This document shows, one piece after another, positions 37,001 to 41,767 of a stretch of 64,000 bases of DNA (its first letter is position 1; each line of letters starts with the position of its first letter). The notes below the pieces were generated by a model. That model did not search any database. It had not been told where the DNA came from and was given only the letters and a program-made list of their open reading frames with translations. Origin of the DNA: the human T2T-CHM13v2.0 reference genome, Homo sapiens; NCBI RefSeq assembly GCF_009914755.1, contig NC_060939.1; one strand, written 5' to 3'. A program made the position numbers and the translations under genes.

Positions 37001-39420
37001 ATTAGCCTGGTGTAGTGGGCATGCACCTGTAGTCCAAGCTACTCAGGAGGCCGAGGTGGGAGGATCAACTGAGCCCTGGAGGTCGAGGCTGCAACAAGCC
37101 ATGATCACACCACTGCACTCCAGCCTAAGCAACAAAGTGAGACTCTGTCTCTAAAACATAAAGTGGGAGACTTCCCCACAACAGTGAGAATGAAACAAGT
37201 TCTACTGTCCTTTCATCATTTCTGAGCAGTTTGAGATTATCAACAAATGAGCTCACTGATTTTGCAGACATACTTATGTTTTGAATGTATTTCATATAAT
37301 TTATTATTGGTTTCAGAATCATTTCCTTTTTAAGTAATTTTTTTGGCTCAGCTAATATCTTAGTTGTACCTACCTTTCCATACTTTGTGAGCTTTCTTAT
37401 TTATACTTAATCTTTCTAAATATACTTGTAAAAATGTAAATGTTAGATCGTTCACTGATAGGCACCAATATCTTTAACAGAAAAGGTTAATTCAAACAAA
37501 TGTCAGGCTAAACTGACAACAGAAATAAAACTGGTCTTCCCAAGTTCAGTTCCTTGTGGATTTGTTATATTGCTACATATTACACCTAGTTTTATGTGTC
37601 TAGATGCTCTGTATCTAGTATACTCTTGAGAGCCTCCAAATATTAATATTTCTTTTTTTTTTGAGATGGGGTGCAGTGGCGTGATTTCAGCTCACTGCAA
37701 CCTCGGCTTCCCACGATCAAGCGTCCTCCTGCCTCAGCCTACTGAGTAGCTGGGATTACAGGTGCCCACCACCACGCCCAGCTAATTTTTTCTATTTTTA
37801 GTACAGATGGGGTTTCAACATGTTGGCTAGGCTGGTCTTGAATTCCTGACCTCAAGTGATTCAACCACCTCGGCCTCCCAAAGTGCTGAGATTACAGGTG
37901 TGAGCTACCGTGCCCAGCGAATATTTCTAGATTTTAGCAGTTGCATAAATTCTACTCCAGGAGGCTTAATATAATTGTCCTTAATATAAATGTCACATTT
38001 CAAATGACATTCAAAAATGTAAAATGATCAATTTAGAAAAAAAAATTACTCCTACCCACTTCCTCTTTTTCTTTTTCTTTTTTTTTTTTTTGAGACAGAG
38101 TTGTACTCTGTCGCCCAGGCTGAAATGCAGTGGCACAATCTCGGCTCACTGAAACCTACGCCTCCTGGGTTTAAGCGATTCTCCTGCCTCAGCCTCCCAA
38201 GTAGCTGGGACTACAAGCGCGTGCTACCAAGCCCGGCTAATTTTTTGTATTTTTTAGTAGAGACAGGGTTTCACCATGTTGCCCAGGCTGGTCTCCAACT
38301 CCTGAGCTCCGGCAATCCACACGCCCCGGCCTCCCAAAGTGCTAGGATTACACGTGTGAGCCGGCGTGCCCGGCCTCACTTCCTCTTTCATACAAGGTCA
38401 GTTCTCACCTATTTCAACCATCAATATGATCGTATTCAAAAAGACCAGGAAGATGATGAAGTTTTTGAAGAGAGGACCTGTTGTCTCTTAAGGAAATGTA
38501 CAGAGTGGAGTTCTTTCTGATTTATGCAGCTGAAATAATAAGAGCAATAACATAAGCAGTGAAAATGAGACAGTGGAGTATGGGGAGCAAAAAATAAGTC
38601 ATTAGGCAGATGATCAACAGCCAGGATAAAAATGAGTGACATGAAAGGATACACTCAAGGACCCATCCGGCCCACAAAGAAAGAGGTGGCCTCTGACTGC
38701 AGCGCACATGAAGCCTGCTCAACAGCCTCTGGGCATGTGAAATCTGTTCTATACGCTGAGGCTTTATAGAGAAACGCACTAGCTGGTGTTGATCTCCCAA
38801 TACAAGTTTCTTCTGGCGGGAAGGATCTACAACAAAAATTAAAAAGGGATAGTGGATAAATACAAACAAAATAGACCAGGTAGGGTTGGGGGCAGGGATA
38901 CTGGTCAGGTAATGGGTTCCCCTAATGCCTTACTGCTAGTCCTTCTCTTCTCACAGCAACTAAGAATTCTGTTTGGAGTGAGAGCAAATGTATTGCTTAT
39001 GACCAACACTGTCCATGCCCACAAAAGCAGCAGGCTCACTCTCAAAGTTTTAAGAGTCTTTGACAGAAACTCTTCCCAATCATCCATGGCTAGTGGCTAT
39101 CCTAGGCCTAAAAGTGAAAGACGTGGATTCTATCTCTTCAGTTTTATTTACAAGCCCTTGATTTATCAAGTTTGGTAAACCAGCAACTAAACCTCCCCAG
39201 AATTTTCCACTCTTAAATGTAGAGGATGTGGATAGGAGTCTTAAATTTAAATTAGTGAAGAAATAGGCTGCTGACCAAGTAACTCCCTGATAGTGTGCCG
39301 CGGCACAGCTTGGCTCAAGCCTTGCAAATGCTCAATGAGAGAGAAAGTATCGATGAGACGTGAACGAATGGCATCAGCTCGGGGAAGCTGCATCTGCTCT
39401 TCTTGTTGGTAAGCGGCCAT
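22059..39420 (-). CDS. CATSPER2: Cation channel sperm-associated protein 2, complete CDS (12 coding exons, 1593 nt, 530 aa)
   Basis: Exons splice to an open frame [10 protein letters not shown]...[10 protein letters not shown]4 voltage sensor [10 protein letters not shown], pore TLDHW, C-terminal coiled coil. Confidence 0.96.
23557..23721 (-). CDS. CATSPER2: CATSPER2 exon 12 (165 nt)
   Basis: RLDWETL...KKLQEFA. Confidence 0.94.
24075..24292 (-). CDS. CATSPER2: CATSPER2 exon 11 (218 nt; alternative start 24286)
   Basis: SRGASQQ...Ser-rich...FSESI. Confidence 0.9.
24430..26035. mobile_element. L2 3' fragment with inserted Alus (25020-25336 +, 25575-26035 -)
   Basis: L2-like motifs (AGTAATCCTT..TCATGTCACTCCTCTG, TGTAAGCTCCATGAAGCAGG) and Alu consensus. 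Confidence 0.7.
26142..26605 (-). mobile_element. MLT1 (MaLR) solo LTR
   Basis: TGTATTAGT..CTGCCATAACAAATTAC..AAACTTGG start, typical MLT1 body, ends ..ACTACA. Confidence 0.8.
26718..26774 (-). CDS. CATSPER2: CATSPER2 exon 10 (57 nt)
   Basis: [18 protein letters not shown]. Confidence 0.92.
27085..27184 (-). CDS. CATSPER2: CATSPER2 exon 9 (100 nt)
   Basis: [13 protein letters not shown]...RQIIQ. Confidence 0.93.
27399..27577 (-). CDS. CATSPER2: CATSPER2 exon 8 (179 nt, pore loop and S6)
   Basis: [18 protein letters not shown]...IVAMM. Confidence 0.95.
28989..29096 (-). pseudogene. U6 snRNA retropseudogene (full length) in CATSPER2 intron 7
   Basis: Reverse complement GTGCTCACTTCGGCAGCACATGTACTAAAATTGGAACGATATAGAGAAGATTAGCATGGCC...CATATTTTTT; ACAGAGA box changed to ATAGAGA; flanking direct repeat TGATTAGTG. 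Confidence 0.93.
30262..30386 (-). CDS. CATSPER2: CATSPER2 exon 7 (125 nt, S5)
   Basis: SMTFLLML...YHVFF. Confidence 0.94.
31002..31157 (-). CDS. CATSPER2: CATSPER2 exon 6 (156 nt, S4)
   Basis: SLLPEVV...[12 protein letters not shown]...RALK. Confidence 0.95.
31683..31855 (-). CDS. CATSPER2: CATSPER2 exon 5 (173 nt, S2-S3)
   Basis: LLESTNTK...[11 protein letters not shown]. Confidence 0.95.
35852..36170 (+). mobile_element. MER1B-type hAT/Charlie MITE
   Basis: CAGGGGTCCCCAA...GGGGACCACTG terminal inverted repeats; 8-bp TSD ATCTAGGG / ATCTAGGA. Confidence 0.88.
36424..38375. mobile_element. Four Alus in CATSPER2 intron 4 (36424 -, 36864 +, 37652 -, 38065 -)
   Basis: Alu consensus. Confidence 0.9.
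38409..38477 (-). CDS. CATSPER2: CATSPER2 exon 4 (69 nt, S1)
   Basis: [22 protein letters not shown]. Confidence 0.93.
38653..38826 (-). CDS. CATSPER2: CATSPER2 exon 3 (174 nt; U12-type donor)
   Basis: DPSRQKK...WVLE; donor T|GTATCCTTT. Confidence 0.93.
39276..39420 (-). CDS. CATSPER2: CATSPER2 exon 2 coding part (exon starts 39422)
   Basis: TAGCAG|ACATGGCC..CTTG|GTCAG; MAAYQQ...IRELL. Confidence 0.95.
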
Positions 39421-40151
39421 GTCTGCTAAGAAAATGTAAGCATCAAGTGTCATTTCATTCTTGGAGCTGCACCAAGGATTACAGGTTTTCTGTCCCCTCC
39501 TCCCCACCCTCTTTACCCTTAAGATTCCTTAATGTACCCACATCTACGAACTAGGAGCAGTTGGGAAGAACAAACATTCTACTAGGACTCAGGGTGTTTT
39601 GAAACAAAAGGGGCTAAGTGGTAAAGACATTGCACAGTCGACCAAGCGGCCAGGCATCTTCACTTTGTGATGGCATTTCTAATTAAAACTCATTAAAAAC
39701 AAAACAAAACAAACAAAAACACCGCAAGAAAAAGGAGCAGCCACAAGGGCAGGGGCCCGGGGCTGGACAAAGAATCTGGGTCCCACCTGTGCCTGAGACA
39801 ATCGGGCAATGAGGTGGAGTTGGGGGAGGTCTTGGCCTGCTCACGCAAGAGAAACCAAGTGCAGAGAAATTGGACAAAATGCCAAAGCCTGACATTTTGA
39901 AAATGGGTCCCGTCCCAAGTGTGTCCACTCCAACACTCCTTCGGGGGCTAGCTCCTTCTCTCCTCCATTCTCGCTTCTGGGCCTCACCTCAGCCCAGGTT
40001 CTCTTTGCCCACTCAGTCCTTATTTCACGCTTCCGCCTCCAGCTCAGGTGCCCCGAGCCTGGCTACCCCTATGCAAGACGAGCTCAGGGCCGGCTCCCAG
40101 CCTCACTGCGCCCCATTCCCCGCCCCGCTCGACCCCCAGGTTTCGGCTCAC

Positions 40152-40640: not shown

Positions 40641-41458
40641 TGACGCCACTCTGCCAAGGCGGGGGAAGAAGGGCCGGGCTGGGCCGGGGCCGGGGGCGAG
40701 GGCGCGGGGAACTGTTGGGCCTACGCAGCGCCGGCGCCCTTCATTCCTGTGGGCCCCTGCTGTGGCGGGCACATTTCTCATTCCCGGGAGCTGGAGGTGC
40801 CTCGCCGAGAGCGGTGGAGTCGGTGCTGATCGGCCCAAGGAAAACCCGAAGGCTGCGCTCACGCAGGGCCTCATCCTTATCTCGGTGCTCTTGTGGCACT
40901 TCCTATTTGCAGAGGGTTTTGCCACCCCTTCCCCCAGTTCAATATGTAGCTATATTGTTTCTGCATGAGTCAGTATTAATGTTACTCCAGTCTACAGACT
41001 AGACATCCCAAAGCCTTGTAGTGGAAGCGGACGTTTCACCAAATGCAGAAGTCCTGGATCCCTAGGGTATTTCCTTTCATCTTACCTCACGCCGCACAGC
41101 CATTGGTTTCTAGCCAAGGTCACTGAGTGGCTGCAGAATGGTCCTAAGTGCTTTCTTGAGGCAGGCAATTTGTCCGTCACATGGTGTACAGTTTCTCCCT
41201 TCAGCTGATCACTTACATCTCAGTACCGGCAGATACCTCTGTCCAAACGAAAAGAGTACCTGAACAAGAATAATTCCATCATAATCTGTCCATATTGTCC
41301 ATTTTAATTAGGATTTCTTTAAAATGTCAATACTCCGAATAGGAACAGCTCCAGTCGACAGCTCCCAGCATGAGTGACGCAGAAGACGGGTGATTTCTGC
41401 ATTTCCATCTGAGGTACCCGGTTCATCTCAATAGGGAGTGCCAGACAGTGGGCGCAGG

Positions 41459-41767
41459 TCAGTGGGTGCGCGCACTGTGCACGAGCCGAAGCAGGGCGAG
41501 GCATTGCCTCACTCGGGAAGCGCAAGGGGTCAGGGAGTTCCCTTTCCTAGTCAAAGAAAGTGGTGACAGACAGCACCTGGAAAATCGGGTCACTCCCACC
41601 CGAAAACTTCGCTTTTCCGACGGGCTTAAAAAACAGCGCACCAGGAGATTATATCCCGCACCTGGCTCGGAGGGTCCTACACCCACGGAGTCTCGCTGAT
41701 TGCTAGCACAGCAGTCTGAGATCAAACTGCAAGGCGGCAGCGAGGCTGGGGGAGGGGTGCCTGCCAT
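41459..41767 (-). CDS. L1 ORF0 (antisense 5'UTR ORF), open for 102 codons
   Basis: MAGTPPPASLPPCSLISDCCASNQRDSVGVGPSEPG matches primate L1 ORF0; donors at 41662 and 41577 intact. Confidence 0.6.
   Translation of the reverse strand: MAGTPPPASLPPCSLISDCCASNQRDSVGVGPSEPGAGYNLLVRCFLSPSEKRSFRVGVTRFSRCCLSPLSLTRKGNSLTPCASRVRQCLALLRLVHSARTH

What the first reader, a model, noticed from the sequence alone, without database searches (positions are those of the whole stretch)
39276..41767. L1 antisense ORF0 can splice in frame onto full-length CATSPER2
Seen: the L1 starts about 1.1 kb upstream of the CATSPER2 promoter with its antisense promoter facing CATSPER2. ORF0 (ATG 41767) is open, and its first donor GAGCCAG|GTGCGG ends at 41662 after 106 nt (35 codons + G). 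CATSPER2 exon 2 starts AG|AC ATG, so G+AC makes Asp and the product is ORF0(1-35)-D-CATSPER2(1-530) in frame. The second donor (41577, phase 2) is out of frame. Further strong minus-strand donors lie at 41217 (GAT|GTAAGT) and 41086 (GAG|GTAAGA). Known: the L1 antisense promoter and ORF0-exon fusions are active in germline and pluripotent cells. Inference: a hominoid-specific alternative promoter and N-terminally extended sperm channel subunit.
Basis: partly seen in the sequence, partly recalled or inferred. Interest (0 to 1): 0.8.

Follow-up and report, generated by a model that had tools for sequence, protein, structure and literature searches.

The report
L1 antisense ORF0 facing CATSPER2
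An old, dead L1 retrotransposon sits just upstream of the sperm-channel gene CATSPER2 so that its antisense mini-gene could splice in frame onto the whole channel protein, but nothing available shows that this splice is ever made.

Summary
The sequence observation holds. On the minus strand, ORF0 starts at 41767 in a strong start context and is open. Its first donor (CAG|GTGCGG) ends at 41662 in phase 1. CATSPER2 exon 2 begins AC-ATG at 39422. The join gives an open 566-aa ORF0(1-35)-D-CATSPER2(1-530) frame.

The L1 (41337-47362, + strand) is a real insertion with a 16-bp target-site duplication and a 3' transduction. It is absent from the paralogous PDIA3-side copy, so it arrived after the segmental duplication. 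It has the short 5'UTR. It looks L1PA3-like, with a terminal branch of about 2%. Its antisense-promoter core matches the majority of its relatives.

No available evidence shows use of the junction. In-frame compatibility is a 1-in-3 event. Only the direct donor-1 to exon-2 splice is in frame. All nine routes tested through the annotated intervening exons (41086-41259, 39988-40068) hit stops. CATSPER2 is absent from the 988-gene EST catalogue of L1 antisense transcripts and from two other supplement sets. Five full-text searches found nothing.

Verdict: a plausible latent fusion site of a known kind, not a shown isoform.

The parts
41337..47362 (+). L1 element, 6026 bp. It lacks about 19-21 nt at its 5' end. 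The 5'UTR runs 41337-42222, the ORF1 ATG is at 42223, and an A14 tail covers 47349-47362. Its own reading frames are broken.
   Evidence: ORF1 is open for 241 aa only and ORF2 is in pieces. It is collinear with 29 genomic L1 copies at 95-96% identity.
41321..41336 (.). 5' copy of the 16-bp target-site duplication AAAATGTCAATACTCC
   Evidence: The paralogous empty site holds a single copy of this stretch.
47450..47465 (.). 3' copy of the 16-bp target-site duplication
47363..47449 (+). 3' transduction: a unique 63-bp segment (47363-47425) followed by a second A-rich tail
   Evidence: The unique segment matches G000:C2:154089848-154089909 at 98% identity. No L1 lies beside it there.
41768..41913 (-). 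Presumed antisense-promoter core and start-site zone, corresponding to about L1 nt 450-600
   Evidence: The position is inferred from the published placement of antisense starts within the first 600 bp of the 5'UTR (passages of PMC4908685). Across 41763-41962 this copy has 0 differences from the >=75% majority of 29 relatives. There is no ATG upstream of ORF0. Activity was not tested.
41662..41767 (-). ORF0 first coding segment (35 codons plus G) up to donor 1, CAG|GTGCGG
   Evidence: It has one amino-acid difference (A4T) from the form seen in most of the 29 relatives. U1 duplex energy is -7.2 kcal/mol; the median of 35 annotated donors in the window is -7.7.
41459..41767 (-). Unspliced ORF0, 102 aa in this copy. 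Donor 2 (CAG|GTGCTG) ends at 41577 in phase 2.
41086..41259 (-). Annotated exon of the PPIP5K1P1-CATSPER2 readthrough (NR_146339.1), which splices to 39422. It lies between the L1 donors and exon 2, and its inclusion puts stops in the ORF0 frame.
   Evidence: Hub annotation. The acceptor is TTATTCTTGTTCAG|G and the donor is GAG|GTAAGA.
39988..40203 (-). CATSPER2 exon 1 (5'UTR) within the CpG-rich promoter shared with PDIA3P2 (40380-40650). It contains the internal annotated acceptor at 40068.
   Evidence: Hub annotation. Routes through the 40068 acceptor hit stops.
39276..39422 (-). CATSPER2 exon 2, beginning AC-ATG, with the start codon at 39420. An alternative acceptor lies at 39425.

Best explanation
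This is an ordinary, fixed, retrotransposition-dead L1. It is probably L1PA3-like and of great-ape age. It inserted about 0.7 kb beyond the duplicated PDIA3 exon-1 fragment, about 1.1 kb upstream of the CATSPER2 promoter, after the STRC-CATSPER2 segmental duplication.

It keeps the standard L1 antisense promoter, an open ORF0 and both ORF0 splice donors. By a 1-in-3 coincidence of phase, donor 1 is in-frame compatible with CATSPER2 exon 2.

My inference on use: the site is latent. The antisense promoter is probably silent where CATSPER2 matters, in post-meiotic male germ cells. Where L1 promoters are open (pluripotent cells, tumours), its transcripts mostly stay unspliced, giving the 102-aa ORF0. 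Otherwise they use the nearer annotated acceptor at 41259 and end in a short ORF0-derived peptide. On this reading the direct in-frame ORF0-CATSPER2 splice is absent or a rare by-product with no role in the sperm channel.
For: Shown:
- Anatomy, frame and the 566-aa open fusion frame.
- Target-site duplication, poly(A) tail and 3' transduction.
- Empty paralogous site: L002 joins window 41330 to 47458.
- The L1's own ORFs are broken.
- ORF0 and donor 1 are typical. 22 of 29 close relatives have the same open 35 codons followed by a GT donor.
- The antisense-promoter core has no difference from the >=75% majority of the 29 relatives.
- Of 13 splice routes enumerated, only the 2 direct donor-1 routes are in frame. 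The 2 direct donor-2 routes and all 9 routes through annotated exons 41086-41259, 41217-41259 or 39988-40068 hit stops.
- Donor 1 is middling. Its U1 duplex energy is -7.2 kcal/mol, as strong as or stronger than 43% of 35 annotated donors in the window.

Absence of support for use:
- CATSPER2, PPIP5K1, PDIA3, STRC and CKMT1 are absent from all 10 supplement files of the 988-gene EST catalogue. The positive control UVRAG was found there.
- CATSPER2 is absent from the Honda 2020 and Jonsson 2019 supplements.
- Five full-text searches found no relevant paper.

Base rate from passages of PMC4908685: 57 of about 3200 ORF0 loci had an observed exon fusion.
Against: - Every sequence prerequisite for the fusion is met. 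L1PA2 and L1PA3 promoters are active in human iPSCs, where about 100 genes depend on them (passages of PMC12791003).
- L1 antisense ESTs are frequent in testis.
- The RefSeq readthrough shows that an upstream donor (41086) does splice to exon 2 while skipping exon 1, so the acceptor is reachable.
- The element abuts a CpG-island promoter, which might keep its 5' end undermethylated (inference, untested).
- The negative catalogues are limited. One is EST-based and shallow. The other two come from HEK293T or neural progenitor cells, not testis.
- The Denli 2015 fusion list and the supplements of Garza 2023 and Adami 2025 could not be read.
- No RNA-seq, CAGE or methylation data could be consulted.
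Confidence: 0.62

Rival explanations
1. The L1 antisense promoter is a real but non-coding-leader alternative promoter. In hypomethylated cells (pluripotent, early embryo, tumour, possibly some germ-cell stages) it drives transcripts that splice from donor 1 or 2 into exon 41086-41259 and then exon 2. The result is CATSPER2 mRNA with an L1-derived leader. Its strong-context ORF0 start acts as an upstream ORF of 50 or 76 aa, which damps rather than extends CATSPER2 translation. Such transcription could also interfere with the CpG-island promoter it runs through.
For: - The acceptor at 41259 has a good pyrimidine tract, is annotated as used, and is the first annotated acceptor downstream of the L1 donors (and the hub annotation).
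- Exon 41086-41259 is annotated as spliced to 39422.
- Translations through this exon stop after 15 extra codons (donor 1) or 13 (donor 2).
- L1PA2/3 antisense promoters serve as alternative promoters in hiPSCs.
Against: - No transcript starting in this L1 appears in the annotation given.
- CATSPER2 is not in the EST catalogue.
- An ATTAAA at 41308 followed by a U-rich stretch could end unspliced transcripts early.
- Expression data were not available.
Confidence: 0.25
2. The L1 antisense promoter is a lineage-specific alternative CATSPER2 promoter in germ cells. The donor-1 to exon-2 splice yields a translated 566-aa CATSPER2 with a 36-residue ORF0-derived N-terminal extension, which enters or modifies the sperm CatSper channel.
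For: - The fusion frame is open in full.
- The ORF0 start has a strong context and no upstream ATG.
- Donor 1 is typical of the family, and ORF0 is reported to have two donors that make fusion proteins (passages of PMC4859970).
- The antisense-promoter core is unchanged.
- Both annotated exon-2 acceptors keep the frame.
Against: - Phase match is a 1-in-3 coincidence.
- There is no sign of selection on the ORF0 exon: 3 majority-departing positions in 106 nt (2.8%), against 28 in 888 nt of the 5'UTR (3.2%).
- The intervening annotated exons break the frame.
- The gene is absent from every catalogue I could read.
- L1 5'UTRs are generally methylated in the adult male germ line (established knowledge, not tested here).
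- The paralogous locus lacks the L1, so no independent copy offers a comparison.
Confidence: 0.08

Closest known systems
ORF0-exon fusion loci of primate L1 (Denli et al. 2015; seen here only through passages of PMC4908685, PMC4859970 and PMC7746726)
   Same: Both have an antisense ORF0 with a strong start and two internal splice donors that can join downstream host exons. This copy has all of these.
   Different: Those 57 loci were defined by observed fusion transcripts or peptides. Here there is only in-frame compatibility and no observed junction. The list itself could not be read.
L1 antisense-promoter chimeric transcripts and alternative promoters, such as L1-MET and UVRAG (start in an L1PA6), and ELAPOR2 and PPP1R1C in hiPSCs (PMC4908685, PMC12791003)
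   Same: An L1PA-type 5'UTR lies upstream of or within a gene on the opposite strand, so its antisense promoter points into the gene's exons.
   Different: Most known cases give truncated or 5'UTR-altered isoforms from intronic L1s. Here the L1 is upstream of the whole gene and could in principle add residues to the full-length protein. CATSPER2 is not in the 988-gene list.
PPIP5K1P1-CATSPER2 readthrough (NR_146339.1)
   Same: It is an upstream-initiated minus-strand transcript that crosses this region, skips CATSPER2 exon 1 and splices into exon 2 at 39422.
   Different: It starts at the PPIP5K1P1 pseudogene promoter, not in the L1. The L1 lies inside its intron (41260-55013). It uses exon 41086-41259 and is annotated as non-coding.

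Membership tests
L1 retrotransposon insertion (target-primed reverse transcription) | Flanking target-site duplication, 3' poly(A) tail, and an empty site at a homologous locus | tested here: met
   A 16-bp duplication lies at 41321-41336 and 47450-47465, with an A14 tail and a second A-rich tail. The paralogous site joins 41330 directly to 47458.
Short-5'UTR L1PA lineage (late L1PA3, L1PA2, L1HS), which lacks the 129-bp ZNF93 site | A 5'UTR of about 910 nt without the 129-bp segment near nt ~790 (PMC7110667, PMC5860796) | tested here: inconclusive
   The 5'UTR is 886 nt plus about 19-21 missing 5' nt. It is collinear in length with 29 close relatives. No long-form copy was aligned for direct comparison, and no subfamily reference sequences were available. 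The L1PA3 label rests on the tree position and the 0.021 terminal branch.
ORF0-bearing L1 antisense unit | ATG in a strong context, an open frame, and two GT donors inside ORF0 | tested here: met
   The start reads gcaATGg. The frame is open for 102 aa. The donors are CAG|GTGCGG (41662) and CAG|GTGCTG (41577). The first 35 residues differ by one from the commonest form among 29 relatives.
ORF0-bearing L1 antisense unit | Active antisense promoter (capped starts within L1 nt ~400-600) | not testable with these tools
   Only sequence integrity could be checked: 0 departures from the majority of relatives across 41763-41962.
ORF0-host exon fusion gene | Splice phase compatible with the host coding exon and no intervening stop | tested here: met
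   Donor 1 to 39422 or 39425 is in frame, giving a 566-aa open frame.
ORF0-host exon fusion gene | Observed junction in RNA, or the junction peptide | not testable with these tools
   No expression data were available here. The gene is absent from the catalogues that could be read, and the full-text searches found nothing relevant.

The most novel reading that the evidence does not exclude
A great-ape-specific L1PA3 insertion, kept partly unmethylated by the adjacent CpG island, serves as a second CATSPER2 promoter in germ or early embryonic cells. Through ORF0 donor 1 it makes a 566-aa CATSPER2 with a proline-rich 36-residue N-terminal extension. That would be a lineage-specific isoform of an essential sperm calcium-channel subunit, created by a retrotransposon after the STRC-CATSPER2 duplication.
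Probability: 0.07. Interest if true: 0.6.

Novelty: new member of a known kind. Interest (0 to 1): 0.3.

Why it matters
CATSPER2 is required for sperm hyperactivation. It lies in the STRC-CATSPER2 deletion region linked to deafness and male infertility.

If real, a retrotransposon-supplied promoter and N-terminal extension would be a clean example of an ORF0 fusion onto a complete, functionally defined membrane protein. It would also be a lineage-specific change in a fertility gene.

As it stands, the locus is a well-defined and cheaply testable candidate, not a finding. The same arrangement is expected by chance at many of the thousands of ORF0-bearing L1s.

One practical point helps any test. 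The paralogue CATSPER2P1 lacks the L1, so any L1-exon 2 junction read maps unambiguously to this locus.

Tried and rejected
**Papers and supplements I could not read**
- Denli 2015 and Speek 2001 are not held. The original ORF0 fusion list and the published donor positions were therefore not seen.
They may list L1-driven genes in neural cells and iPSCs, and they bear on this claim.
- Earlier findings of this scan were not open.

**Literature searches**
- Five full-text searches pairing CATSPER2 with L1 or transposable-element terms found nothing relevant.
- A sixth search, with 'retrotransposon' and 'alternative promoter', returned one unrelated CREM review.

**Ideas considered and rejected**
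- The L1 predates the duplication and was lost from the paralogue. Rejected because the paralogue shows a single-copy target site.
- The 41217 and 41086 donors offer further in-frame routes. Rejected because all routes through them hit stops.
- Routes through the internal 5'UTR acceptor at 40068. Rejected because they hit stops.

**Methods I could not apply**
- A proper splice-site model (MaxEnt) was not available. I used U1 duplex energy as a crude substitute. I attempted no acceptor scoring beyond reading the tracts.
- Subfamily assignment by diagnostic positions was not possible without reference sequences.
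Full report
**Observation.** I read window 39200-42300 on the minus strand.

- The ORF0 ATG is at 41767 in the context gcaATGg.
- The frame reads MAGTPPPASLPPCSLISDCCASNQRDSVGVGPSEP and then meets CAG|GTGCGG. The last exon base is 41662, so the exon is 106 nt and the donor is in phase 1.
- CATSPER2 exon 2 begins at 39422 with AC and then the start codon at 39420.
- Joining the two gives ...PSEP-D-MAAYQQ.... 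With all annotated coding exons the frame is open for 566 aa to the natural stop.
- The annotated alternative acceptor at 39425 also keeps the frame, adding A-D.
- Donor 2 (CAG|GTGCTG, 41577, phase 2) is out of frame with both acceptors.
- No ATG lies between 41960 and 41768 on this strand.

**What the element is.** The + strand from 41337 to 47362 is an L1 of 6026 bp.

- It has an A14 tail, a 63-bp transduced unique segment (47363-47425) and a second A-rich tail.
- A perfect 16-bp target-site duplication lies at 41321-41336 and 47450-47465.
- Its ORF1 is open for only 241 aa and its ORF2 is in pieces, so it cannot move on its own.
- Each of the 5 relatives whose 5' ends I could anchor has about 19-21 further 5' bases that this copy lacks. 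That stretch covers the YY1 site, which is placed at nt 13-21 (passages of PMC4908685).
- The transduced segment matches a single other place, G000:C2:154089848-154089909, at 98% identity. No L1 lies beside it there. The source element was therefore apparently never fixed, or was lost.

**Age and the paralogue.** The human genome behind the window could be searched.

- The paralogous copy of this region (G000:C15:41552620-41556248, beside CATSPER2P1 and PDIA3) aligns up to window 41330 and resumes at 47458. It has a single copy of the target site. This is an empty site, so the L1 inserted on the CATSPER2 side after the segmental duplication.
- Flank divergence between the paralogues is 4.3% and 5.4%, counting substitutions only.
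- Against its 29 closest genomic copies over 2.05 kb, the element is 95-96% identical and of the same 5'UTR length.
- It has 23 private non-CpG differences in 1922 columns.
- Its terminal branch is 0.021. It sits in an older clade, apart from a clade with 0.004-0.007 branches.
- The 129-bp ZNF93-site deletion that gives the short 5'UTR arose in L1PA3 in the great-ape ancestor (passages of PMC7110667). That deletion is located near nt ~790 of the 5'UTR (PMC5860796).
- I therefore read the element as L1PA3-like and of great-ape age. This label is an inference. I had no subfamily reference sequences, and I did not align a long-form copy.

**State of the antisense unit.**

- Across 41763-41962, the zone upstream of ORF0 where antisense starts are expected, this copy shows no departure from the >=75% majority of the 29 relatives.
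- The ORF0 exon has 3 departures. One of them gives the single amino-acid difference, A4T.
- 22 of the 29 relatives have the same open 35 codons followed by a GT donor. CAG|GTGCGG itself recurs among them.
- Measured as U1 duplex energy, donor 1 (-7.2 kcal/mol) sits in the middle of the 35 annotated donors of the window (median -7.7). It lies in the top 8% of the 121 GT sites between the ORF0 start (41767) and exon 2.
- The unit is therefore typical and apparently intact, and not special.

**What stands between the L1 and exon 2.**

- The annotated readthrough NR_146339.1 has an exon at 41086-41259 that splices to 39422. Its acceptor (TTATTCTTGTTCAG|G) lies only 78 bases beyond the L1 end, and its donor is strong (GAG|GTAAGA, -9.6 kcal/mol).
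- Any antisense transcript that uses this exon, or its short form ending at 41217, meets stops in the ORF0 frame.
- The same holds for routes through the annotated internal acceptor at 40068.
- Of 13 routes enumerated, only the 2 direct donor-1 routes are in frame.
- One poly(A) hexamer (ATTAAA, 41308) lies in the path.

**Evidence on use.**

- Five full-text searches pairing CATSPER2 with L1 terms gave no relevant paper. A sixth gave one unrelated review.
- In the EST catalogue of L1 antisense transcripts (PMC4908685; 988 genes, with testis and brain the main normal sources), CATSPER2, PPIP5K1, PDIA3, STRC and CKMT1 are absent from all 10 supplement files. The control gene UVRAG was found there.
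- CATSPER2 is also absent from the held supplements of Honda 2020 (1 file) and Jonsson 2019 (5 files).
- According to passages of PMC4908685, 57 of about 3200 ORF0 loci had observed exon fusions.
- L1PA2 and L1PA3 promoters are active in hiPSCs, where about 100 genes depend on them (passages of PMC12791003).
- I could not read Denli 2015, Speek 2001, or the supplements of Garza 2023 and Adami 2025.
- No RNA-seq, CAGE, methylation or proteome data can be reached with these tools.

**Reading.**

- Shown: a typical, post-duplication L1 with an intact-looking antisense unit faces CATSPER2. One of its two donors is in-frame compatible with the complete coding sequence.
- Inferred: the junction is latent or rare. 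The phase match is a 1-in-3 event. A nearer annotated acceptor breaks the frame. No catalogue I could read lists the gene. L1 5'UTRs are generally silenced in the adult male germ line, where the channel is made (established knowledge, not tested here).
- Rivals: a non-coding-leader alternative promoter, with ORF0 acting as an upstream ORF, is the main rival.
- Novelty: the kind of thing, an L1 antisense promoter with an ORF0 fusion, is well known. This locus would be a new member if the junction were found.

Noticed in passing
window 47363-47449; L040 (G000:C2:154088348-154091409): The L1 carries a 63-bp 3' transduction ending about 20 nt after an ATTAAA. Its only other match in the genome is on contig C2 at 154089848-154089909 (98% identity), and no L1 lies next to it there. 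The progenitor element seems to be absent from this genome.
   Followed up: partly
window 41337 (L1 5' end): The L1 lacks about 19-21 nt at its 5' end that each of the 5 anchored relatives has (ggggaggagccaagatgg...). That stretch includes the reported YY1 site at nt 13-21. Sense-strand initiation may be impaired while the antisense unit is untouched.
   Followed up: partly
window 41459-41767 (minus strand): Unspliced ORF0 is 102 aa here, not the 70-71 aa reported for L1HS. The relatives fall into two types just after donor 2, and the two types appear to differ in length by one base there (judged by eye from the 15-nt strings printed). That would shift where the frame ends.
   Followed up: partly
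window 39422-39425 (minus strand): CATSPER2 exon 2 has a NAGNAG tandem acceptor (TTAG|CAG|AC). Both forms are annotated. The 3-nt difference lies in the 5'UTR of normal transcripts.
   Followed up: no
window 41600 (minus strand): A further GT site inside ORF0 (CGG|GTGGGA, phase 0) has better U1 complementarity (-9.6 kcal/mol) than either known ORF0 donor. It would be out of frame with exon 2.
   Followed up: no
window 39696-41330 and 47458-48916 versus L002: The two copies of the duplicated CATSPER2/PDIA3 promoter region differ by 4.3-5.4% in substitutions. From memory, this is much more than the near-identity usually quoted for the STRC part of the same duplication, which would suggest uneven gene conversion along the duplicon.
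   Followed up: no
PMC4908685 supplement file 10 (mouse table): Mouse Catsperb, which from memory encodes an auxiliary CatSper subunit, is listed with an L1 antisense EST (BB589974, L1_Mus3). This is an unrelated case of an L1 antisense transcript at a CatSper gene.
   Followed up: no
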